From Escherichia coli 042 (lineage in GTDB: Bacteria > Pseudomonadota > Gammaproteobacteria > Enterobacterales > Enterobacteriaceae): a stretch of 64,000 bases of DNA. This document shows, piece after piece, positions 24,120 through 48,826 of the stretch. The stretch lies in the NCBI RefSeq assembly GCF_000027125.1, contig NC_017626.1; one strand, 5' to 3'. The position numbers and the translations under genes were made by a program. The notes under the pieces are model-generated. The model did no database searches. It was not told where the DNA came from and saw only the letters and a program-made list of their open reading frames with translations. Position 1 is the first letter of the stretch, and every line of letters starts with the position of its first letter.

Positions 24120-25364
24120 ATGGCAAGAAAGGCGACCCCACTCACCACCACACAGATCAAAGCAGCTAAACCAGCGGAAAAAGAATACACCTTACAGGAT
24201 GGCGGCGGGCTTTTTCTCGTCATTAAGCCATCTGGTTCGAAACTATGGCGATTCAACTACTATCGACCATCGAACAAAAAACGAACAATCATTAGTTTGG
24301 GATCGCTCGATGAAGTCTCCCTGGCTGATGCCAGAAAACGCCGTAGCGAGTACAGGACGTTAATTGCGTCAGGGATTGACCCACAGCATCACGAGCGGCA
24401 AAAACGCGAAGCAGAGGCCAGAAGACAGGGCAACACGTTCGAAAATGTGGCCGCATCGTGGTACGAAATGAAAAAAAACCAGAATCTCGCCCACAATACG
24501 ATCAAGGACATCTGGCGCTCGCTAGAGAAATATGTATTCCCGTATATCGGAAACACACCGATAGATACTCTCACCGCTCGCCGCTTTGTTGAGATACTCA
24601 CGCCCATCAAGACACGTGGCAACCTGGAAACACTGAAACGCGTTTTACAGCGCATCAATGAAGTGATGGATTTTGCTGCCAACAGTGGACTGATTGACAT
24701 CAACACCGCTGCGAACGTCCGCAAGGCATTCCCTTCCCCCACCAAAAAACACATGCCAACCATCCGACCAGAACAACTACCGCAGCTAATGCACGATTTA
24801 TCGATCGCCAGCATAGAACGGCAAACCAGATTGCTGATTGAGTGGCAGTTGTTAACCGCAACCCGTCCAGCCGAAGCCTCCGCCGCACGGTGGGAAGAAA
24901 TCAACCTTGATGCGGCAACATGGACGATACCAGCCGGACGCATGAAGATGCGCCGTGATCATGTGATCCCTCTTTGCGCTCAGGCGATGGCAGTGCTTGA
25001 AGCCATGAAGCCGATTAGCGCACGAAGGGAGCATGTTTTCCCAAGTCTTAAAAATCCAGTGCAACCAATGAGCAGCCAGACAGCAAACGCAGCATTACGG
25101 CGAATGGGTTACACTGGTGTACTGGTATCTCACGGGCTACGCGCCATATTCAGCACAGCGGCGAACGAAGAAGGATTTGAGCCGGACGTAATCGAGGCCG
25201 CACTCGCACACGTGGACACGAACGAAGTTAGACGGGCATACAACCGAAGCAACTACCTGGAAAAACGTAAAGTGTTAATGTGCTGGTGGGGTGATTTTGT
25301 GGAAGCAGCCTCAACCGGAACAACCATCGCCAGCGGGCACAGGGGATTACGCGGAATAAAATAA
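24120..25364 (+). CDS. int: P4-family tyrosine integrase
   Basis: 414 aa; N-terminal arm-binding-type region (KEYTLQDGGGLFLVIKPSGSKLWRFNYY...), C-terminal catalytic region with HGLRAIFST and a tyrosine near the end (RAYNRSNY); adjacent to a tRNA gene in the same orientation. Confidence 0.85.
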   Translation: MARKATPLTTTQIKAAKPAEKEYTLQDGGGLFLVIKPSGSKLWRFNYYRPSNKKRTIISLGSLDEVSLADARKRRSEYRTLIASGIDPQHHERQKREAEARRQGNTFENVAASWYEMKKNQNLAHNTIKDIWRSLEKYVFPYIGNTPIDTLTARRFVEILTPIKTRGNLETLKRVLQRINEVMDFAANSGLIDINTAANVRKAFPSPTKKHMPTIRPEQLPQLMHDLSIASIERQTRLLIEWQLLTATRPAEASAARWEEINLDAATWTIPAGRMKMRRDHVIPLCAQAMAVLEAMKPISARREHVFPSLKNPVQPMSSQTANAALRRMGYTGVLVSHGLRAIFSTAANEEGFEPDVIEAALAHVDTNEVRRAYNRSNYLEKRKVLMCWWGDFVEAASTGTTIASGHRGLRGIK

Positions 25365-25377
25365 AATATTTAAAAAA

Positions 25378-25417
25378 TTATTGGTTCCTAATTGGTACCA
25401 ATTTGGAGCCAATTTGT
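25378..25417. promoter_or_regulatory. operator-like palindrome cluster in the int-alpA intergenic region
   Basis: ttattggttcctaattggtaccaatttggagccaatttg contains the perfect 14-bp palindrome aattggtaccaatt (25390-25403) flanked by CCAATT/AATTGG half-sites, in an AT-rich region upstream of alpA. Confidence 0.4.
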
Positions 25418-25616
25418 GTCTCTTTACTGTCTCATTTTGAGAAATATTTAAAATTCTTTTTATGTTAGAAAATTAAAAAATAACCAATCACATAACTCTT
25501 ATTAAATAATTCTTGACTTGCTTTTTTATAGATTTGTATTCTTTTTATATGTTTTTACATGTTTACCGTCATTTTCATTCAAAAAGCGGTATTTTACTGT
25601 CTATAGGAGAAATAAG

Positions 25617-25808
25617 ATGAGGGCTATTCTTTTACGACCAGAGGTCAAGGCCTTGCTACGCATTAAATCTGATTCAACCCTAACGGAGATGGTTAACAAA
25701 GGCGGGTTCCCCAAAGGATTCCGTATCGGGCTGCGTCGCATTGGCTGGTATGAAGATGAGGTACTCGCCTGGTTGAAAGAACGTGAGAGAGAAACTCGTG
25801 AAGCATAA
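25617..25808 (+). CDS. alpA: AlpA-family phage transcriptional regulator / excisionase-like HTH protein
   Basis: 63 aa from the ATG at 25617 with an AGGAGA ribosome-binding site; MRAILLRPEVKALLRIKSDSTLTEMVNKGGFPKGFRIGLRRIGWYEDEVLAWLKERE has the AlpA-like pattern (...IG.R.IGW.E.EV..WL). Confidence 0.7.
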   Translation: MRAILLRPEVKALLRIKSDSTLTEMVNKGGFPKGFRIGLRRIGWYEDEVLAWLKERERETREA

Positions 25809-26266
25809 GTGTGATTAACGCTGGCCTGATTACTATCAAGCAACAAAACAATTAAGAGAGAACATTATAAATACTGGCAAAAATGCCCAAACAGGGGCAG
25901 GTTTTCGTTCAACCATAAAAAATTATGGCTGATGTTATTATTCAGTTCAAACCGTACGAACGAATTAATTGAACTAATAGCACTTCCGTTTTAAACGGAA
26001 ACGTACAATCGCATAGCTTAAACGACAAAAGAAATATGTTGCTTACGAATAAAACAAAGGCGACCGCAGAGGGTCGCCAGAAGGCATATATTAAACTTGA
26101 ATGCATCGCCAACAATGCCATATTTCCGGCTGGTGAGCAATGTGATTTGTGTGGTGGGCACACCTTCAACACATCCGACCACATGAGCAAGAAAACGGGA
26201 TATACTCACCAAATCCCTTATAAAACGGGGATCGGGATTACCACCCCGCTGGAGTTAACGGCGATA

Positions 26267-26290
26267 CAGACGCGCCACGCGTCTTTTTTT
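26267..26290 (+). terminator. candidate intrinsic terminator inside the alpA-icd gap
   Basis: cagacgcgccacgcgtc followed by T7 (GC stem gacgcg/cgcgtc, short loop), preceded by further stem-loops at 26058-26079 and 26226-26248. Confidence 0.5.
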
Positions 26291-26454
26291 GTATCGACGC
26301 ACACGCACGCCTTATCAATGGTGGGCTGTATGGGGCTGACTTCGGTCAGGCTGGTTTCCGTTAACACCAGTTGTGGTAACCCTGTACAGTCCACCGCCAG
26401 CGAGCTTACCACCTCCTGCGGTGGGTATATCCCAACGTTAACGGAGGCTGCCAA

Positions 26455-26694
26455 ATGGCTACTATCCCTGCCCTCGCACATACTCAGAACGCCTTTATCT
26501 GGCGCTTTATCATCGTTAATCCGAGTGATTCCCGCGTCGTTCACGTCGTGGCGTCAACCGAACAGGAAGCGCGTAACCGTTGTCCGTCCGGTTGTGTTGC
26601 CGTATTCGCTGCCCGTATTCGTCAGGGGGTAAGTCATGCTCAAGCGATTCCAGATAACCGCACGCGCTGTAAATCATCAAGGCCACGTTATTGA
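26455..26694 (+). CDS. Icd-like (host cell division inhibitor-like) small phage protein
   Basis: 79-aa ORF with a GGAGG ribosome-binding site 8 nt upstream; MATIPALAHTQNAFIWRFIIVNPSDSRVVHVVASTEQEARNRCPSGCVAVFAARI resembles the Icd-like small-protein family as I remember it. The 3' end overlaps the next ORF by 58 nt in another frame, so the true C-terminus is uncertain. Confidence 0.5.
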   Translation: MATIPALAHTQNAFIWRFIIVNPSDSRVVHVVASTEQEARNRCPSGCVAVFAARIRQGVSHAQAIPDNRTRCKSSRPRY

Positions 26695-26821
26695 TATTCG
26701 GCAAAACGTGAACGCCACCAGCGTTAATGCAGCTATAGCAATATTGAAAGAAGAGTTAATCGGCTGTAGGTTCACGCAGGTGATGATCCGTGCCGTAGTT
26801 GAAGTGTCGACTGTTCATTAA
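26636..26821 (+). CDS. hypothetical small phage-island protein
   Basis: 61-aa ORF with a strong GGGGGTAAG ribosome-binding site; MLKRFQITARAVNHQGHVIDIRQNVNATSVNAAIAILKEELIG...; no function recognised. Confidence 0.45.
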   Translation: MLKRFQITARAVNHQGHVIDIRQNVNATSVNAAIAILKEELIGCRFTQVMIRAVVEVSTVH

Positions 26822-26860
26822 TCTCATTAATACAGCTTTAACAAAAACGTAATTCGACAA

Positions 26861-27148
26861 ATGAAAGCAAAAAATTCTGGCTTTACTGCCAGCGGTAAAA
26901 CTCGTCCTAAATTCATGCACGGCGATATTTACCGCGATAAATACGGCAGCACGGTAATGATTAAGGGCGTGAGTGAACGACGCATTACCTACCGCCGTGA
27001 AGGATACAAATATGACTGCGTGATGCCTGTTTATCAGTTCCAGCGTGATTTTACGCTGGTGGATCATCGTGAAACCGTAAATCAGAACCGTGCAGCAAGA
27101 TACATCCGCAAAATCTGCGAAATGATGGTTACTGGGGGCAAGAAATGA
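26861..27148 (+). CDS. hypothetical protein, translationally coupled to the primase gene
   Basis: 95-aa ORF whose TGA stop overlaps the ATG of the downstream 712-aa ORF (ATGA); basic protein; no recognisable domain. Confidence 0.4.
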   Translation: MKAKNSGFTASGKTRPKFMHGDIYRDKYGSTVMIKGVSERRITYRREGYKYDCVMPVYQFQRDFTLVDHRETVNQNRAARYIRKICEMMVTGGKK

Positions 27149-29283
27149 AACGCGCACCGAATTTAAAGCACCAGCCGAAAGACAAAATGACGGAGGTGAT
27201 TATCTTTGCGGGTAGTGATGCCTGGGCACATGCGAAAGAGTGGAGCGAATGGGCCGGAAAGCATATTGCGGCAGATGATACACATCCAGTTATTCTTGGA
27301 CCGGAACAACTGGCGAGTCTGGCAGACACGCAAATCATCGACAAAGGGCGCTATTACGTGCGCGTTTATCGTGCTGGTGAAATATCAGAGCAGCACCTTA
27401 CACAGATAGCGACACTGCTTGCAGTGGCGGGTGTGAAGGAGGCGCGTTGCTACCGCAGCTTTGTTGATCAGCAGCCGGAGGACTGGACACCGCGCATGGC
27501 TGGACTGAAGGATGATGCGGAACGCGGTAACAGTCTGGTGATCAACCTTCCGGCGAAGACAAATTTCACCGGAAATTATGATGACGAATTAAAGCCTCGT
27601 GTTGAAAGTCGCGTCGATGGTGTTTTCTGGGTAACGCCCAAAGTGGACAAGCAGTCAGGCGAAATTATCCGGCCTGAGACGTGGTTATGTTCTCCGCTTG
27701 AACTACTGGGAACAGGAACAATCGGCAAAGAGCATTACCGCGTGATGCGCTGGAAAAAACCAGCAAACCATGAGGTCATTACAATGGCGGTCCCGTGCGG
27801 AGGCATTGGTGACCGTGACGGCTGGCGGTTGCTGAAAGACCACGGCCTTAACGTGACGACCAACGGCAAATACAGGGCTATCCTGGCTGACTGGATGCAG
27901 TTAAGCGGAAACCATGAGGAATGGCAGTTAAGCACAACAACGGGGTGGCATTTTGGTGCGTACATCATGCCGGATGGTTCGATCATCGGTGAATCAGAGA
28001 AACCCATCCTGTTTACCGGAAAAACTGCCGCTGTTAATGGCTATTCCGTGGCGGGAACAGCGGAGGGCTGGCGCGATACCGTGGCACGGCTGGCTGGTGG
28101 TAATCCGTCCATGATGCTGGGTGTGGCGGTATCGCTATCTGCACCATTAATCGGGCTGGTGGGTGCTGACGGCTTCGGGGTTCATCTTTTTGAGCAATCA
28201 TCAGCAGGTAAAACCACCACACAGAACATTGCATCAAGTTTATGGGGAGAGCCGGACGCGCAACGGCTGACCTGGTACGGAACGGCGTTAGGTATCGCCA
28301 ACGAGGCCGAAGCACATAATGACGGGCTGTTACCCCTGGATGAAATAGGCCAGGCCGGAAACGCACGGGAAGTGTCCACGTCGGCTTATACGCTGTTTAA
28401 CGGTTCGGGGAAATTACAGGGGGCGAAGGACGGCGGCAACAGGGAGATAAAACACTGGCGAACAGTGGCAATCAGTACCGGAGAAATGGACGTTGAAACA
28501 TTCCTCAAAAGTGAGGGGATAAAAGTCAAGGCTGGGCAGCTTGTCCGGTTGCTTAACGTGCCGATGGAGAAGTCCACGCAGTTTCACGAATACAGCACAG
28601 GAAAGGCGCACGCAGACGCGTTAAAGGATGCCTGGACAGCAAATCACGGGGCGGCAGGTCGTGAGTGGATTAAATGGCTAGCAGCCCACCAACAGGAGGC
28701 TAAGGACACGGTAAGGGCATGCCGTGAACGGTGGCGCAACCTGATACCGGAGAGCTACGGCGAACAGGTTCACCGCGTAGGGGAACGATTCGCCATACTG
28801 GAGGCCGCGCTTGTGCTGTCAGGCAATGTTACGGGCTGGGATGTTCAGGCGTGCCGTGATGCCATTCAGCATAACTTTAATGCCTGGGTGAAGGAGTTCG
28901 GCACGGGTAACAAGGAACACAGGCAGATTATTGAACAGGCAGAGGCATTTCTTACTGCCTACGGCATGAGCAGGTTTGCGCCTGTCAATTATGACCCTGC
29001 AAGCCTGCCGATTTCAGAACTGTACGGCTACAGGGAAAGCGAGGGGCGTTACGGTGAGCCTGTTTTGTTTTACGTCCTGCCGGAGCCATTTAAATCGCAT
29101 GTGGCGAAGGGATTTAACAAGGATGCCGTAGCAAGAGCCCTTCACGAAGCCGGAATGCTGAAAAAGCCAGCCAGCGGGGAAGGATGGCAAATCAGAACAC
29201 CACGTCTTAAGCACATGAAGGGGGCACGACTAAGGGTGTACGGCCTTTTACTTGCACAGGATCATGATGATGAAGGTGGTTAA
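27145..29283 (+). CDS. primase/helicase-like replication initiation protein (P4 alpha-like; P-loop NTPase core)
   Basis: 712-aa ORF; central Walker A-like FEQSSAGKTTTQN followed by acidic DE-type motifs (LPLDEIG); the size and the iterons immediately downstream fit a satellite replication protein. An alternative start at 27187 (MTEVIIFAG) is possible. Confidence 0.65.
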   Translation: MKRAPNLKHQPKDKMTEVIIFAGSDAWAHAKEWSEWAGKHIAADDTHPVILGPEQLASLADTQIIDKGRYYVRVYRAGEISEQHLTQIATLLAVAGVKEARCYRSFVDQQPEDWTPRMAGLKDDAERGNSLVINLPAKTNFTGNYDDELKPRVESRVDGVFWVTPKVDKQSGEIIRPETWLCSPLELLGTGTIGKEHYRVMRWKKPANHEVITMAVPCGGIGDRDGWRLLKDHGLNVTTNGKYRAILADWMQLSGNHEEWQLSTTTGWHFGAYIMPDGSIIGESEKPILFTGKTAAVNGYSVAGTAEGWRDTVARLAGGNPSMMLGVAVSLSAPLIGLVGADGFGVHLFEQSSAGKTTTQNIASSLWGEPDAQRLTWYGTALGIANEAEAHNDGLLPLDEIGQAGNAREVSTSAYTLFNGSGKLQGAKDGGNREIKHWRTVAISTGEMDVETFLKSEGIKVKAGQLVRLLNVPMEKSTQFHEYSTGKAHADALKDAWTANHGAAGREWIKWLAAHQQEAKDTVRACRERWRNLIPESYGEQVHRVGERFAILEAALVLSGNVTGWDVQACRDAIQHNFNAWVKEFGTGNKEHRQIIEQAEAFLTAYGMSRFAPVNYDPASLPISELYGYRESEGRYGEPVLFYVLPEPFKSHVAKGFNKDAVARALHEAGMLKKPASGEGWQIRTPRLKHMKGARLRVYGLLLAQDHDDEGG

Positions 29284-29308
29284 TCTCTCGCGTGTAGGTT
29301 TAAAAACT

Positions 29309-29443
29309 CTTGTCCCACCTGTCCCAACCTGTGAGAAACACACATAACATACTGAATTATATTGGGTAATATCAGAAAAAGTGGGACAAGAGCGGGACAA
29401 GTTAAGGTGATTTTGGGACAAGTTAGGAGCATTTTGGGACAAG
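29309..29443. repeat. iteron cluster 1 (GGGACAAG repeats), putative origin of replication
   Basis: Inverted copies CTTGTCCC at 29309-29316 and ctgtccca at 29319-29326, an AT-rich spacer, then four direct GGGACAAG copies at 29383-29390, 29394-29401, 29415-29422 and 29436-29443; immediately downstream of the primase gene. Confidence 0.6.
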
Positions 29444-29519
29444 TCAGCAGGCGTTATTTTTTGCCTGGCTGGTGGACATTAAAAATCCAACCAACATTTA
29501 AAACCGGAGAGCAGACAAT

Positions 29520-29945
29520 ATGACGGCACAAATATCAGCTTACGGGCGGTTGGTGGCTGACCCGCAGTTAAAAACCACCAGCAAGGGAACACCAATGGCG
29601 CTGGTGAGTATGGCTGTTCCCCTTCCGTGCAGTCAGGCATATGACGGAACAGCGACGATGTGGTTATCCGTCCTGGCGTTTGGCAGACAGGCCGATGCAC
29701 TGGCAAAACACCAGAAAGGCGAACTGGTGAGCATGGCGGGTAACATGCAGATAAGCCAGTGGACAGACCAGAACGGGGAAATGCGGCAGGGCTGGCAGGT
29801 CATCGCAGACAGCGTAATCAGTGCGCGAACCGTGCGACCAGGAGGCAGGAAAGGACAGCAAGGGCAGGCTACTGACGCACTGAACAGAACAAAGCAGCAG
29901 ACGGGCCAGCAGGATGACCCGTATGAGGACGAAATACCATTTTAA
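29520..29945 (+). CDS. ssb: single-stranded DNA-binding protein (SSB-like, OB fold)
   Basis: 141 aa; SSB-like layout with conserved aromatic positions, a Gly/Gln-rich linker and the acidic tail ...DDPYEDEIPF that resembles the E. coli SSB C-terminal DDDIPF. Confidence 0.75.
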   Translation: MTAQISAYGRLVADPQLKTTSKGTPMALVSMAVPLPCSQAYDGTATMWLSVLAFGRQADALAKHQKGELVSMAGNMQISQWTDQNGEMRQGWQVIADSVISARTVRPGGRKGQQGQATDALNRTKQQTGQQDDPYEDEIPF

Positions 29946-29980
29946 CTGCCAGTGGATTCACTAACAGAGGTTAACAAATA

Positions 29981-30517
29981 ATGACTACACTGACTATTAG
30001 CAGAAAACCGAAAGGCATTTACGGCATACCACAGAAAAAGACACAGACGACACAGCAGCAGGATAAAACCACATCAGCGCATAAAGTGATACCCGGCAAT
30101 CAGAACGCACAGCAGAGCCGCAAACAGAAGCCCACAGGGGCGACACCGTGGCGGCATATGACCAAACGCCAGGGCAAAAACCGCAGGCGCGTTAACCGTC
30201 TTATTGAACTATGGCCTGAATTATTCAGCCTGGAATCACCGAAGCCGCTTAAGGTAGGAATATTTGAAGACCTGATACAGGATATTGCCGTCAGGGCGCT
30301 GGCTTTTGGGTCAGGGGCATTACGTGCGGCGCTAGCATCTTATGCTCATTCTCCGCGTTATTACCGTGCCTTAATGGCTGGTGGCGTGCGTTACGATCTG
30401 AATAGCCAGCCATGCGGCGAGGTGACACAACAGGAACAGCAGGACGCGGAAGCACGACTGATGGCACTGAAAGAGAAGCGCAAACGTAAGTCGAACAAGG
30501 AGCAAGCTGGCGTATGA
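29981..30517 (+). CDS. FinO/ProQ-family RNA-chaperone-like protein
   Basis: 178 aa; basic Q/K-rich N-terminus, then LIELWPELFSLESPKPLKVGIFEDL...RYYRALMAGGVRYDLNSQPCGEV, which resembles the FinO/ProQ N-terminal domain signature; assignment from memory only. Confidence 0.5.
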   Translation: MTTLTISRKPKGIYGIPQKKTQTTQQQDKTTSAHKVIPGNQNAQQSRKQKPTGATPWRHMTKRQGKNRRRVNRLIELWPELFSLESPKPLKVGIFEDLIQDIAVRALAFGSGALRAALASYAHSPRYYRALMAGGVRYDLNSQPCGEVTQQEQQDAEARLMALKEKRKRKSNKEQAGV

Positions 30518-30798
30518 GTATGATTCACGACAGCAAAGCGGAAGATCTGGAGGCTAAAGGCCTGTACCGGAGAGCGGCAGCCCGATGGGCTGAGGTCATG
30601 CAACAGGTGAACACCGATAAGGAGCGCGAACAGGCAGTAAAGCGTCGCGCGAAATGTATCCACAAGGCAGCACGTTCGCCCGTCATGCTGGATAATTTCG
30701 GGGGCTTGAGAGAGGCAGCAAACCGCACACAGGCGGATATGGGGATAGAAATCGCAAAATCTGTCTGGCGGAACTACCAGACAGACAAGGTTTTATAG
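30514..30798 (+). CDS. PerC-family transcriptional regulator-like protein
   Basis: 94 aa; AEDLEAKGLYRRAAARWAEVM matches the PerC/Pch-type motif (AE.LE..GLWRRAA.RW..VM); start overlaps the previous stop (ATGA coupling). Confidence 0.55.
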   Translation: MSMIHDSKAEDLEAKGLYRRAAARWAEVMQQVNTDKEREQAVKRRAKCIHKAARSPVMLDNFGGLREAANRTQADMGIEIAKSVWRNYQTDKVL

Positions 30799-30854
30799 TG
30801 GCAGTTCTGCATTATTTTTTGTGTTATTGAGTTGTAGAGCGTTTCAGGAGTTTT

Positions 30855-31064
30855 TTGAATCACATGAACGTTTCGCTGGTGGATATTCTTGACAAGTTGC
30901 AGCCAGGCCGACGCGTGCCAGCTCGCCGCAGTGCCTGGCATCTTCCGTACATCGTCTTTCTCGAACGGCGCGGAAACGATTTGATTGCGTTGAATCCCGT
31001 CACAAAGGATAGCGTTACGCTATCTCCTGAGAGTCTACTAGCCACAGACTGGGAGTACTGCTAA
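30855..31064 (+). CDS. hypothetical protein
   Basis: 69-aa ORF with a CAGGAG ribosome-binding-like site upstream; last ORF before the ~0.9 kb non-coding iteron region; no recognisable motif. Confidence 0.3.
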   Translation: MNHMNVSLVDILDKLQPGRRVPARRSAWHLPYIVFLERRGNDLIALNPVTKDSVTLSPESLLATDWEYC

Positions 31065-31597
31065 ACACAAACGCATCGAGGGTGCTGGCGTGTTGCCAGC
31101 CCCACCCCCTCCGAAATGATCCCCCAAAAAGTGCAAAATGATCCCCCATTAACGAACAGAAAACAAACAAAGAGCAACAAATAATCATTATTTACAATTC
31201 TTGACAAAAACACCCCCTATTTATAACCCTACCAAATTTAAAATTACATCTACAAAACAATAAGTTACAAAATCAGCAACGGATCATTTCGGAAAAAACG
31301 GTTAGTCCCTTTTTCGAAAAGGGATCATTTTGTTGCTTAAACTCATATGCGGATTACATATCAATACGCTAGTGATAGCCGTTCTGGAATGCCACAGAAA
31401 CGCGCTGTAATCGATTCTGGCGCAATTAGCTGTGCTAGGTAATGATTTACCTATCTGGGGATGTTGCGCACGTCTGGATTGCGTTACCACCGAAGATTGT
31501 GCGCATATGGTGGCTGTTACGGTGGCCTCCCGACAACGCAAAATTGCGGCGGCACAGTCGGTTTACCGCGCTAACACGGCTTGATTCACTCGCTCGA

Positions 31598-31717
31598 CTT
31601 GTCCCACCTCCCCCCCCAACTTGTCCCAAAACAGCCTAGACTTGTCCCACCTTACCTAATTTATTTCTAACAAAATCAATTTGTTAGGTGCTGGTGGGAC
31701 AGGTGGGACGGGTGGGA
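31598..31717. repeat. iteron cluster 2 (CTTGTCCC x3 and GGTGGGAC x3 flanking an AT-rich spacer), putative second cis-replication site
   Basis: CTTGTCCC at 31598-31605, 31618-31625 and 31640-31647; inverted GGTGGGAC(A/G)G at 31692-31699, 31701-31708 and 31710-31717; followed by (TA)n at 31729-31740. Confidence 0.6.
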
Positions 31718-31998
31718 CGGGTGGTTTTGTATATATATATACGAAAAATTGCATTCAGGAGGGGGGCGAAATTCCTGCAATCCATTACTTATGGAACTGT
31801 CCGCCCCGTCAAATTTTTACGCCCGCGCAATTAAAAAAATGCGTCACGCAGGTGGGCATGATGCCGATATGCTTGTCGGGTTCAGCTTTTTAAGGCGGCT
31901 GTAGATGTCAGGTTATCCGTGCTCATCCACCAGCCAGCTTCATAGCGGATAGCCGGAAAATGGTAACGGTTAAAGCTGTACATTTTTGCAGCAAATCA

Positions 31999-32023
31999 TT
32001 TTAGTTATACGTTTAGATATACG
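31999..32023. repeat. right boundary direct repeat (putative attR)
   Basis: ttttagttatacgtttagatatacg, 23 of 25 identical to 24034-24058. Confidence 0.5.
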
Positions 32024-32103
32024 ATTTCAAAACTCAATTAATCTACATCTTTAAAATCATGCAGTTACAGAATCAATTAAACTACTCTCGTGGCCAAAAA
32101 TCC

Positions 32104-32137
32104 CCAAAAAAACCAACCGTAAAGGTTGGTTTTTTTA
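32104..32137 (-). terminator. rho-independent terminator downstream of yejO
   Basis: aaaaaaaccaaccgtaaaggttggttttttt: hairpin with flanking A and T runs. Confidence 0.7.
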
Positions 32138-32197
32138 TATCTGCATTTAATTCGATAAACAGACCGCGACACATCACGGCCTGTTTATTTTCTGTTA

Positions 32198-35108: not shown

Positions 35109-35756
35109 ATGCCTGAAGCAACGCCTTTTCAGGTGATGATTGTGGATGATCATCCACTTATGCGACGCGGTGTTCGTCAGTTACTGGAGCTTGATCCTGG
35201 CTTTGAAGTGGTCGCCGAAGCGGGCGACGGCGCGAGCGCGATCGATCTGGCGAATAGACTGGATATCGACGTGATCTTGCTGGATCTCAATATGAAAGGT
35301 ATGAGTGGCCTGGATACCCTCAATGCCTTGCGCAGGGATGGCGTTACCGCGCAAATTATTATCCTGACCGTATCAGATGCCTCCAGCGATGTCTTTGCGC
35401 TGATAGACGCAGGCGCAGACGGTTATCTGTTGAAAGATAGCGACCCGGAAGTGTTGCTGGAAGCGATTCGTGCCGGAGCGAAAGGCAGCAAAGTCTTTAG
35501 CGAACGCGTCAATCAGTACTTACGTGAACGTGAAATGTTTGGCGCGGAAGAAGATCCCTTCAGCGTGCTGACGGAGCGCGAGCTGGATGTTCTGCACGAG
35601 CTGGCACAGGGGCTGTCAAATAAACAGATTGCCTCGGTGTTGAATATTTCCGAGCAGACAGTAAAAGTACACATTCGCAATCTGCTGCGTAAACTCAATG
35701 TCCGCTCACGCGTGGCGGCCACCATTCTGTTCCTGCAACAACGCGGGGCACAATAA
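35109..35756 (+). CDS. narP: nitrate/nitrite response regulator NarP
   Basis: 215 aa from the internal ATG MPEATPFQVMIVDDHPLMRRG...; receiver domain plus LuxR-type HTH. Confidence 0.93.
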   Translation: MPEATPFQVMIVDDHPLMRRGVRQLLELDPGFEVVAEAGDGASAIDLANRLDIDVILLDLNMKGMSGLDTLNALRRDGVTAQIIILTVSDASSDVFALIDAGADGYLLKDSDPEVLLEAIRAGAKGSKVFSERVNQYLREREMFGAEEDPFSVLTERELDVLHELAQGLSNKQIASVLNISEQTVKVHIRNLLRKLNVRSRVAATILFLQQRGAQ

Positions 35757-47186: not shown

Positions 47187-47446
47187 GGTGTTTCCTCACC
47201 TTGCTCTTCCTGCTGGTGATAAACCAGCGACACCGCCAGCACGCCCTCTACGTTGCGTACTGACTCAATGATTTGGATCAGCGTTTCGCTGTCTTCTGCT
47301 TCCACCACCACAATCAACTGACCGCTCGGCGCGTCGCTGACAGCAACTTCACAGCCGGGAAAGGCGTTCAGTTGGGTGCTGATGTCTGAAATTCGTTCGC
47401 TTTTGGCCTGCACGACCAGGCTGCAAACTTGCCAGTTAGTGTGCAT
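47183..47446 (-). CDS. napD: NapA chaperone NapD
   Basis: 87-aa ORF overlapping the napA start. Confidence 0.9.
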
Positions 47447-47930
47447 GGAGATACTCCGCAGTTATGGCTGATACCGGACAGCTGGCTGCACATGCTCCAC
47501 ATCCGTTGCAAAGTTGGCTATTAAGTTGCGGCTGGTAGATCCCGGAGAGCGTCGGGCGAAAGATAATTGCCATTGGCTCACAGCTATCCTGACAGCGGCG
47601 GCATTCAACTGACTGATACGCCAGGCACGCGTCCCCAATGGTGAACTGCAAATCCCAGGCCCTGGTGTGGCGCGGAGAAAATAGCGATTCGGGGCAAGCC
47701 TGCGCGCAGGCGTAACAGAAGCTGCACTCGTTATTTTTGAAGTTAACGCTCGGATAGCCGCCCGCGCCGCGTTGCAGAATGTTGTTTTCACAAGCATTAA
47801 TACAGGCGTCGCAGCGAGTGCAATGGGTCAGAAAATGAGATTCATCACCGGACCAGGGCGGACGGATACCGTTACTGGCTTTGCGCCAGCGACCAGTGAG
47901 TATGCCCCGACGGGATGCATCAATCTTCAC
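47436..47930 (-). CDS. napF: ferredoxin-type protein NapF
   Basis: 164 aa; several 4Fe-4S CxxCxxCxxxC motifs; first gene of the nap operon. Confidence 0.92.
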   Translation of the reverse strand: MKIDASRRGILTGRWRKASNGIRPPWSGDESHFLTHCTRCDACINACENNILQRGAGGYPSVNFKNNECSFCYACAQACPESLFSPRHTRAWDLQFTIGDACLAYQSVECRRCQDSCEPMAIIFRPTLSGIYQPQLNSQLCNGCGACAASCPVSAITAEYLHAH

Positions 47931-48043
47931 ATTGACCTTCCATCATTAACGCGCTCTGAAAATTGAGAGCGACCAAATAAACCGCATAATTAATAAGCCA
48001 TTTTTATAGCCGCTAAGATATTAAAGGATGTGTCAAAGATGCA

Positions 48044-48059
48044 TACCCCGATCGGGGTA
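48044..48059. promoter_or_regulatory. NarP/NarL 7-2-7 heptamer pair in the napF promoter
   Basis: TACCCCGATCGGGGTA is a perfect inverted pair of TACYYMT heptamers with 2-bp spacing, about 115-130 bp upstream of the napF start codon (plausible -44.5 position). A weaker FNR-like half-site pair lies nearby at about 48066-48079. Confidence 0.7.
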
Positions 48060-48337
48060 AAACCTGTAGCAGGATCAAAAGAGTGGCGGGAAGCGTGGCA
48101 AAAACGGGCTTTTGCTCACATTTCAAATGGTTATAAACATACTTATATAGCGATTAATTCACCAGAGATATTTATGTCGGTTTGTTCTCTCACCAGAATT
48201 TAACACTAAAAGAGCAGGTAAAATTGTCTGAATGTTCTTTAAGTTATTCATAAAGCAAATTAATAAATCTGATGAATATGTTAACCTTCAGCGACATCAT
48301 CGGTGAAAACCTATAAATGAAGAAGGAAAGCAAAAAA

Positions 48338-48826
48338 ATGAAGACCATTCTACCTGCAGTATTGTTTGCCGCTTTCGCCACCACTTCCGCCTGGGCGGCA
48401 GAAAGCGTCCAGCCACTGGAAAAAATCGCGCCTTATCCACAAGCTGAAAAAGGCATGAAGCGTCAGGTGATTCAGTTAACCCCGCAAGAAGATGAATCTA
48501 CCCTGAAAGTAGAACTGTTAATCGGCCAGACGCTGGAAGTCGATTGCAATTTGCATCGTCTCGGCGGGAAGCTGGAAAGCAAAACGCTGGAAGGCTGGGG
48601 CTATGATTATTACGTCTTTGATAAAGTTAGCTCGCCGGTTTCCACGATGATGGCCTGCCCGGATGGCAAGAAAGAGAAGAAATTTGTCACCGCGTATCTG
48701 GGCGATGCCGGAATGCTGCGTTATAACAGCAAGCTGCCGATCGTGGTGTATACGCCAGACAATGTGGATGTGAAGTACCGCATCTGGAAGGCGGAAGAGA
48801 AAATTGACAACGCGGTAGTTCGCTAA
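48338..48826 (+). CDS. eco: serine protease inhibitor ecotin
   Basis: 162 aa from the internal [23 protein letters not shown]... (signal peptide). Confidence 0.93.

What the first reader, a model, noticed from the sequence alone, without database searches (positions are those of the whole stretch)
47931..48337. napF control region retains a perfect NarP/NarL 7-2-7 site
TACCCCGATCGGGGTA (48044-48059) is a perfect inverted heptamer pair positioned as expected for the napF promoter. The adjacent FNR-like site is recognisable only as a degenerate TTGAT-N4-ATCAA half-site pair (around 48066-48079 on the minus strand). Worth confirming because this operon is the main anaerobic nitrate respiration system next to the mobile element.
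Basis: partly seen in the sequence, partly recalled or inferred. Interest (0 to 1): 0.2.

Follow-up and report, generated by a model that had tools for sequence, protein, structure and literature searches.

The report
Known napF promoter NarP/FNR sites
This is the ordinary, long-characterised control region of the E. coli periplasmic nitrate reductase (napF) operon; its nitrate-regulator and oxygen-regulator binding sites are base-for-base the same as in the laboratory strain K-12.

Summary
Span 47931-48337 is exactly the intergenic region between napF (minus strand, GTG at 47930) and eco (plus strand, ATG at 48338) of an E. coli chromosome. TACCCCGATCGGGGTA sits at 48044-48059. From the napF start codon to 48137 the sequence is identical to K-12 MG1655.

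A ModE-type operator lies at 48129-48152, and overlapping -10 hexamers TAATAT/TATCTT at 48023-48015. With +1 placed at 48007, these centres fall at -44.5, -64.5 and -133.5. I recall those as the published K-12 positions; the primary papers could not be opened.

The 71-bp core is 100% identical in 4,929 of 5,421 complete E. coli genomes. All spacings are invariant in E. albertii, Citrobacter and Leclercia.

Three caveats apply:
- "Perfect" means perfectly symmetric. Each heptamer differs from the consensus TACYYMT at position 7.
- Nap is the low-nitrate system, not the main nitrate reductase.
- The mobile element, an ~8 kb island at tRNA-Pro, is about 16 kb away.

Verdict: already known, low interest.

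The parts
48044..48059 (.). NarP/NarL 7-2-7 site TACCCCG-AT-CGGGGTA. It spans -52 to -37, centre -44.5, relative to the inferred P1 start.
   Evidence: Sequence and coordinates. Identical in K-12. Literature position -40/-49: PMC4549865. The outer six bases of each heptamer are conserved across Escherichia, Citrobacter and Leclercia.
48065..48078 (-). FNR site TTGAT-CCTG-CTACA, a 7/10 match. It spans -71 to -58, centre -64.5.
   Evidence: Sequence. TTGAT is invariant in all 12 sequences compared, with constant 20-bp centre-to-centre spacing to the 7-2-7 site. The K-12 FNR ChIP-seq peak centre (2301669, U00096.2) maps about 7 bp from this site and carries a weak PWM score of -5.37: PMC3688515 Table S5.
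48015..48020 (-). Promoter P1 -10 hexamer TATCTT (-13 to -8).
   Evidence: Position follows from the geometry. Invariant in all species compared. Its assignment to P1 comes from my recollection of Stewart et al. 2003 (J Bacteriol 185:5862), which is not held in the library.
48018..48023 (-). Overlapping promoter P2 -10 hexamer TAATAT, 3 bp upstream of the P1 hexamer.
   Evidence: The first T is lost (AAATAT) in Citrobacter and Leclercia. The assignment is recalled from the literature.
48007..48007 (-). Inferred P1 transcription start (A on the minus strand). It corresponds to NC_000913.3 position 2303574.
   Evidence: Inference. This is the only position that places the 7-2-7, FNR and ModE motif centres at the recalled values -44.5, -64.5 and -133.5 together, with a -10 hexamer at -13 to -8. 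It was not measured here.
48129..48152 (-). ModE-type operator CGCTATATAAGTATGTTTATAACC, centre -133.5. Its central spacer differs from K-12 at two bases.
   Evidence: SNPs against K-12. The CG(C/T)TATATA ... TATA(T/A)AAC arms are conserved in Escherichia and Citrobacter and absent in Leclercia. The ModE assignment comes from my recollection of McNicholas & Gunsalus 2002, which PMC3688515 supplement file 9 cites when listing ModE as a napF regulator.
47931..48006 (-). napF 5' untranslated leader, about 77 nt, with Shine-Dalgarno GGAAGG at 47941-47936.
   Evidence: There is no significant RNA structure (z = -0.10).
47436..47930 (-). napF coding sequence (164 aa, GTG start), first gene of napFDAGHBC-ccm.
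35109..35756 (+). narP, the response regulator that binds the 7-2-7 site. It lies about 12 kb away in the same window.
   Evidence: Annotation of the collinear strain 118UI. The ORF carries Response_reg and GerE domains.

Best explanation
This is the wild-type, K-12-type control region of the napFDAGHBC (periplasmic nitrate reductase) operon.

Under anaerobiosis, FNR binds the weak site centred at -64.5 (48065-48078). With low nitrate or nitrite, phospho-NarP binds as a dimer to the symmetric 7-2-7 site centred at -44.5 (48044-48059). The two together activate the activator-dependent promoter P1 (-10 TATCTT, start near 48007), which has no usable -35 element. At high nitrate, phospho-NarL competes for the same 7-2-7 site but activates poorly, so expression peaks at low nitrate. 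ModE bound at -133.5 (48129-48152) adds a molybdate input.

Shown here:
- the sequences, their coordinates and their spacings
- identity to K-12
- conservation within E. coli and across genera

Taken from papers read here:
- the 7-2-7 site at -40/-49
- the logic of FNR and NarP activation with NarL antagonism
- an FNR ChIP-seq peak at this locus

Recalled from primary papers that are not held in the library:
- the exact start site
- the -64.5 and -133.5 values
- the P1/P2 assignment
For: Identity to K-12:
- The region is 100% identical to K-12 MG1655 from the napF start codon to 48137, covering the leader, the -10 hexamers, the 7-2-7 site and the FNR site. All 9 differences lie in 48138-48194.

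Literature read here:
- K-12 napF has a 7-2-7 site at -40 to -49 (PMC4549865).
[quoted passage not shown] A fusion carrying -85 to +19, wide enough to include both sites, showed nitrate-dependent expression peaking near 5 mM and dropped when sRNAs lowered NarP (PMC9262595).
- FNR ChIP-seq and ChIP-chip place a peak at napF/yojO, centred at 2301669 in U00096.2, with a weak motif score of -5.37 (PMC3688515). After coordinate conversion it lies about 7 bp from the predicted site centre.

Geometry:
- A single choice of +1 (48007) puts the three motif centres at -44.5, -64.5 and -133.5 and a -10 hexamer at -13 to -8.

Statistics:
- TACYYMNNNNKRRGTA occurs once, against 0.03 expected.
- No consensus sigma-70 promoter is found on the napF strand, as expected for an activator-dependent promoter.

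Conservation:
- The 71-bp core is 100% identical in 4,929 of 5,421 E. coli genomes.
- Across E. albertii, four Citrobacter and Leclercia, the block from -71 to -7 has 93-100% column identity, against 66% upstream of the ModE site.
- Every spacing from TTGAT to the 7-2-7 site to the -10 is invariant in the 11 of 12 sequences that matched the spacing pattern. The twelfth (MFDS1006657) failed only because its -10 block reads TATATCTTA, and it aligns without indels across this block.
- Two Citrobacter sequences change position 7 of both heptamers together (G..C to A..T), which keeps the dyad perfect.
Against: Nothing contradicts the explanation. The limits are these:
- No binding or transcription was measured, and the window strain itself has never been tested.
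- The transcription start was inferred from recalled literature values, so agreement with -44.5 is partly circular. The -10 placement and the ModE distance are the independent checks.
- The FNR site is too degenerate to be called from sequence.
- The window carries two SNPs in the ModE operator spacer whose effect is unknown.
Confidence: 0.95

Rival explanations
1. The conservation of this stretch reflects protein coding, not regulation. The annotated small gene yojO (48039-48203, plus strand) begins inside the 7-2-7 and FNR elements, and purifying selection on YojO would keep them constant.
For: RefSeq annotates yojO over exactly this stretch in K-12 and many other strains. The ORF is intact in the window (54 aa).
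Against: The reading frame stops after 15-20 codons in E. coli SCPM-O-B-8794, E. albertii, all four Citrobacter and Leclercia, and C. werkmanii also lacks a start codon there. Yet the DNA of the first ~14 codons, which holds the NarP and FNR sites, stays conserved. Against K-12, the 9 SNPs cluster in the 3' half of the ORF and change 6 residues. Conservation follows the regulatory block (-71 to -7), not the ORF.
Confidence: 0.03
2. The palindrome is a chance or structural palindrome, for example a PvuI/Dam-site-containing inverted repeat, with no regulatory role. Nitrate control would then be exerted elsewhere.
For: Perfect 16-bp palindromes are not rare here: the window holds 5. The full consensus at 2 mismatches or fewer is at chance level.
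Against: The specific NarL/NarP-type dyad occurs once, against 0.03 expected. It sits at the literature position. It is identical in K-12, and its outer heptamer bases and spacing are conserved across three genera, with symmetric co-variation at position 7. No other 7-2-7-type site exists in the intergenic region.
Confidence: 0.02

Closest known systems
E. coli K-12 napF (aeg-46.5) operon control region, promoters P1 and P2. Sources: Darwin & Stewart 1995 J Mol Biol 251:15; Darwin et al. 1998 J Bacteriol 180:4192; Stewart et al. 2003 J Bacteriol 185:5862; McNicholas & Gunsalus 2002 J Bacteriol 184:3253.
   Same: The sequence is identical from the napF start codon through the leader, both -10 hexamers, the 7-2-7 site, the FNR site and a further 59 bp upstream (47931-48137). 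The gene order narP-ccm-nap-eco-mqo is the same.
   Different: There are nine SNPs in 48138-48194: two in the ModE operator spacer, one beside it at 48156, and six further upstream. The exact 407-bp haplotype is a minority one, with 228 of 5,421 genomes at 99% identity or more. No functional difference is demonstrated.
Other NarL/NarP 7-2-7 sites: nirB -69.5, nrfA -74.5, fdnG, yeaR -42.5, and the engineered narG -89/-89 site TACCCCTAAAGGGGTA.
   Same: All have inverted TACYYMT-type heptamers with a 2-bp spacer, the only arrangement that NarP binds (PMC2718512; PMC1802743; PMC4549865).
   Different: The napF site overlaps the -35 region (-44.5) with FNR upstream of it, the reverse of nirB and nrfA, where FNR sits at about -41.5 and the 7-2-7 site lies upstream (my recollection). 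Position 7 of both heptamers is G rather than T.
O157:H7 / E. albertii allele of the same site: TACCTCGATCGGGGTA.
   Same: Position, spacing and flanks are the same, and it still fits TACYYM.
   Different: One C-to-T change breaks the perfect symmetry. The 71-bp core carrying it is found in 441 of 5,420 E. coli genomes. The window has the majority, symmetric allele.

Membership tests
NarL/NarP 7-2-7 binding site | Two heptamers in inverted orientation separated by exactly 2 bp | tested here: met
   TACCCCG-AT-CGGGGTA at 48044-48059, with perfectly complementary arms.
NarL/NarP 7-2-7 binding site | Each heptamer matches the consensus TACYYMT | tested here: met
   Each heptamer matches 6 of 7 positions, with G for T at position 7. 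Position 7 is the variable position across genera (G, A or C), while TACC(C/T)C and GGGGTA are conserved. The characterised K-12 site has the same sequence.
NarL/NarP 7-2-7 binding site | Bound by phospho-NarP and phospho-NarL (footprint or EMSA) | not testable with these tools
   This rests on the literature for the identical K-12 sequence. PMC9262595 states that NarL-P binding prevents NarP-P binding at napF. The primary footprint papers are not held.
K-12 napF control region (same locus, orthologous) | Located directly upstream of napF, between napF and eco, with sequence identity to K-12 | tested here: met
   The intergenic region is 97.8% identical overall and 100% identical across 47931-48137.
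K-12 napF control region (same locus, orthologous) | 7-2-7 site centred at -44.5 and FNR site at -64.5 relative to the P1 start | tested here: inconclusive
   The 20-bp centre-to-centre spacing was measured, and the -40/-49 heptamer positions are confirmed by PMC4549865. The start site itself (48007) is inferred, not measured.
FNR binding site | Match to TTGAT-N4-ATCAA | tested here: inconclusive
   The match is 7/10: the distal half is perfect and the proximal half matches 2 of 5. Sites of equal quality are abundant by chance (339 in the window). The K-12 PWM score of -5.37 is among the weakest of the ChIP peaks.
FNR binding site | Occupied by FNR in vivo | not testable with these tools
   The published K-12 ChIP-seq/ChIP-chip peak at napF/yojO lies about 7 bp from the site (PMC3688515). 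The sequence in the window is identical.
ModE operator | Inverted CGnTATATA ... TATATAnCG-type arms upstream of a molybdoenzyme operon | tested here: met
   CGCTATATA-AGTATG-TTTATAACC lies at 48129-48152. The arms are conserved in Escherichia and Citrobacter. The consensus and the -133.5 position are recalled from memory. ModE is listed as a napF regulator in PMC3688515 supplement file 9.

The most novel reading that the evidence does not exclude
The window-specific cluster of nine SNPs (48138-48194) might change the molybdate or other upstream inputs to napF in this minority haplotype. Two of these SNPs lie in the ModE operator spacer and create a consensus NarL heptamer, TACTTAT, at 48140-48146. 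Alternatively, the intergenic region's only two GATC (Dam) sites fall in the centre of the 7-2-7 site and in the FNR half-site, which could make NarP, NarL or FNR binding sensitive to methylation. Neither idea is excluded, and neither is supported beyond the sequence itself.
Probability: 0.05. Interest if true: 0.25.

Novelty: already known. Interest (0 to 1): 0.05.

Why it matters
It matters little beyond annotation. The result shows that nitrate, oxygen and molybdate control of periplasmic nitrate reductase in this strain should be wild type, and that the island at tRNA-Pro has not disturbed it.

The cross-species comparison adds a modest sequence footprint that agrees with the published architecture:
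- the P1 -10 hexamer is invariant, while the P2 -10 hexamer is not conserved outside Escherichia;
- heptamer position 7 is free to vary, but in two Citrobacter genomes it changes symmetrically in both heptamers;
- the yojO reading frame is not conserved.

Tried and rejected
Dead ends:
- Opening the primary papers by DOI and PMC id failed; none is held (Stewart 2003 PMC193976, Darwin 1998 PMC107417, Stewart 2009 PMC2632075, Wang 1999 PMC94036, Noriega 2010).
- Full-text searches for the site sequence and for '44.5' or '64.5' with napF or NarP gave nothing useful. The values -64.5 and -133.5 and the P1/P2 assignment therefore rest on my recollection.
- The supplements of MotifAdjuster and of PMC9262595 held no napF site data.

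Negative or uninformative results:
- The consensus scan for sigma-70 promoters found nothing on the napF strand. It found a chance-level plus-strand match at 47963-47990.
- A terminator-like hairpin in the leader (47985-47969) is not supported by folding (z = -0.10).
- The perfect TTGACA at 48036-48031 was considered as a -35 element and rejected. It lies at -29 to -24, only 7 bp from TAATAT, and is not conserved in Citrobacter.

An initial assumption corrected:
- I first assumed the window was collinear with strain 118UI, which carries IS4 next to tRNA-Pro. That is wrong left of yejO: the window carries a different island there.

Full report
**What is there**

The window is an E. coli chromosome segment. 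The 407 bases of the finding match 5,421 of 5,426 complete E. coli genomes, always on the chromosome. The best match is strain 118UI at 100%, and K-12 MG1655 matches at 97.8%. ORF listing and RefSeq annotation of K-12 and 118UI show that 47931-48337 is exactly the intergenic region between napF and eco. napF is on the minus strand (GTG at 47930, 164 aa) and is the first gene of napFDAGHBC-ccm. eco is on the plus strand (ATG at 48338). The small annotated ORF yojO lies inside the region at 48039-48203 on the plus strand.

**Checking the observation**

TACCCCGATCGGGGTA is at 48044-48059, as stated.

- A perfect 16-bp palindrome is not remarkable by itself. The window has five, against about 1.3 in simulations.
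- The full consensus TACYYMTNNAKRRGTA, allowing two mismatches, is at chance level, with 3 found and 2.56 expected.
- The reason is that both heptamers carry G instead of T at position 7. 'Perfect' is therefore true of the symmetry, not of the match to consensus.
- If position 7 is ignored, the NarL/NarP-type dyad TACYYMNNNNKRRGTA occurs once in 64 kb, against 0.03 expected.
- It is the only 7-2-7-type arrangement in the intergenic region.

It matches 7 of 10 consensus positions, with only the promoter-distal half intact. Sites of that quality are everywhere: 339 in the window.

**Comparison with K-12**

Aligned to MG1655, the window is identical from the napF start codon up to 48137. That stretch covers the leader, the -10 region, the 7-2-7 site, the FNR site and a further 59 bp upstream. 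All nine differences fall in 48138-48194.

PMC4549865 gives the K-12 napF 7-2-7 site as '-40 to -49', which are the heptamer centres, so the site centre is -44.5. [quoted passage not shown] A fusion carrying -85 to +19 showed nitrate-dependent expression peaking near 5 mM and dropped when sRNAs lowered NarP. PMC3688515 reports an FNR ChIP-seq/ChIP-chip peak at napF/yojO centred at 2301669 (U00096.2), with one of the weakest motif scores in the table (-5.37). It classes napF as co-activated by NarP. I converted coordinates through NC_000913.3, where napF starts at 2303497, using a version offset of about 1976 bp that I know from the two genome versions. On that basis the peak centre lies about 7 bp from the centre of the predicted FNR site.

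**Geometry**

The centres of the 7-2-7 and FNR elements are 20 bp apart. A ModE-type operator, CGCTATATAAGTATGTTTATAACC, lies at 48129-48152.

If the P1 start is placed at 48007 (A on the minus strand), the three centres fall at -44.5, -64.5 and -133.5. The overlapping hexamers TATCTT and TAATAT then fall at -13 to -8 and -16 to -11. These are the values I recall from Darwin et al. 1998, Stewart et al. 2003 (dual promoters whose starts differ by 3 nt, with P1 the regulated one) and McNicholas & Gunsalus 2002. Those papers are not held in the library, so this step rests on my recollection.

The start site is inferred, and agreement with -44.5 alone would be circular. The simultaneous fit of the -10 hexamers and the ModE distance is the independent check.

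No consensus sigma-70 promoter is detected on the napF strand, which fits an activator-dependent promoter. The perfect TTGACA at 48036-48031 lies at -29 to -24 and cannot serve as the -35 element.

**Conservation**

Within E. coli:
- The 71-bp core (48026-48096) is 100% identical in 4,929 of 5,421 genomes.
- The main alternative core, which differs by one base that makes the site TACCTCGATCGGGGTA, is found in 441 genomes, including O157:H7 and O145 strains. It still fits the consensus but breaks the symmetry.
- One strongly divergent E. coli (MFDS1006657) keeps the 7-2-7 site, TTGATCC and the ModE arms while its flanks diverge.

Across E. albertii, four Citrobacter genomes and Leclercia:
- The block from -71 to -7 has 93-100% column identity, against 66% upstream of the ModE site.
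- TTGAT, GGGGTA and AATATCTTA are invariant.
- Every spacing is invariant in the 11 of 12 sequences that matched the spacing pattern. MFDS1006657 failed only because its -10 block reads TATATCTTA, and it aligns without indels across this block.
- Position 7 of the heptamers is the variable one. In two Citrobacter genomes both copies change together (G..C to A..T), which keeps a perfect dyad.
- The P1 hexamer TATCTT is invariant. The first T of the P2 hexamer is lost outside Escherichia. That fits my recollection that P1 is the physiological promoter.

**The other strand**

yojO begins at 48039, so its first 14 codons are the NarP and FNR sites read on the other strand. The frame is broken after 15-20 codons in another E. 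coli lineage, E. albertii, Citrobacter and Leclercia. Against K-12, the SNPs cluster in its 3' half and change six residues. The conservation is therefore regulatory, not coding.

The leader RNA has no significant structure (z = -0.10).

**Mechanism**

This is the standard model, supported here as described above.

1. Anaerobic FNR sits on a weak site at -64.5.
2. Phospho-NarP binds as a dimer to the 7-2-7 site at -44.5.
3. Together they activate P1.
4. Phospho-NarL competes for the same site at high nitrate and activates poorly.
5. ModE at -133.5 adds a molybdate input.

I put confidence in this at about 0.95. The rivals are coding constraint from yojO and a chance palindrome. The conservation pattern, the site's specificity and its position argue against both.

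- Nap is the low-nitrate periplasmic enzyme (PMC9262595), not the main nitrate respiration system.
- The 'mobile element' is an island of about 8.3 kb inserted at tRNA-Pro(GGG). It carries a tyrosine integrase, an Ash-family protein, a DUF927 protein, SSB, ProQ/FinO and PerC (23837-23913 through about 32197). yejO, narP, the ccm genes and the whole nap operon lie between it and this promoter, a distance of about 16 kb.

**Verdict**

The feature is already known and wild type in sequence. Interest is low.

Noticed in passing
window 48039-48203 (+): The annotated small ORF yojO starts inside the NarP and FNR sites. The frame is broken after 15-20 codons in another E. coli lineage, E. albertii, Citrobacter and Leclercia, and the window differs from K-12 at six residues. 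It is probably not a conserved protein-coding gene.
   Followed up: partly
window 48138-48194: All nine differences from K-12 in the napF-eco intergenic region cluster in 57 bp. Two lie in the ModE operator spacer and create a consensus NarL heptamer, TACTTAT, at 48140-48146. Only 228 of 5,421 genomes are 99% or more identical to this 407-bp haplotype.
   Followed up: partly
window 48050-48053 and 48073-48076: The only two GATC (Dam) sites in the 407-bp intergenic region lie in the centre of the 7-2-7 site and in the FNR half-site (TTGATC). The count is not above expectation (2 against about 1.6). The GATC in the 7-2-7 site is lost in three of the four Citrobacter genomes and in Leclercia.
   Followed up: partly
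window 48025-48032 (-), ACACATCC at about -25 to -18: This block lies between the 7-2-7 site and the -10 hexamers and is invariant across Escherichia, Citrobacter and Leclercia. No known site was assigned to it here. It may be a spacer constraint or another regulator's site; IscR is listed as a napF regulator in PMC3688515 supplement file 9.
   Followed up: no
window 48018-48023 (-), compared with L010-L014: The P2 -10 hexamer TAATAT becomes AAATAT in Citrobacter and Leclercia, while the P1 hexamer TATCTT is invariant. This suggests that P2 is specific to Escherichia or dispensable.
   Followed up: yes
window 23837-32197: An island of about 8.3 kb is integrated at tRNA-Pro(GGG). It carries a tyrosine integrase (24120-25364), an Ash-family protein, a DUF927 protein (27145-29283), SSB, ProQ/FinO and PerC, a gene set that looks like a P4-like or phage-satellite element. 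Strain 118UI has IS4 at this position instead, and strain Ec-U7 has only a remnant.
   Followed up: partly
L005 (O157:H7), L006, L009 (E. albertii): A natural allele, TACCTCGATCGGGGTA, breaks the symmetry of the 7-2-7 site. The 71-bp core carrying it is found in 441 of 5,420 E. coli genomes, including O157:H7 and O145 strains.
   Followed up: yes
L014 (Leclercia) 691-760: In Leclercia the sequence upstream of the napF control region ends in a tRNA-like 3' end (GGTTCGAATCC...CCA) in place of the ModE operator and eco side. The upstream neighbourhood therefore differs, and the ModE site is absent.
   Followed up: no
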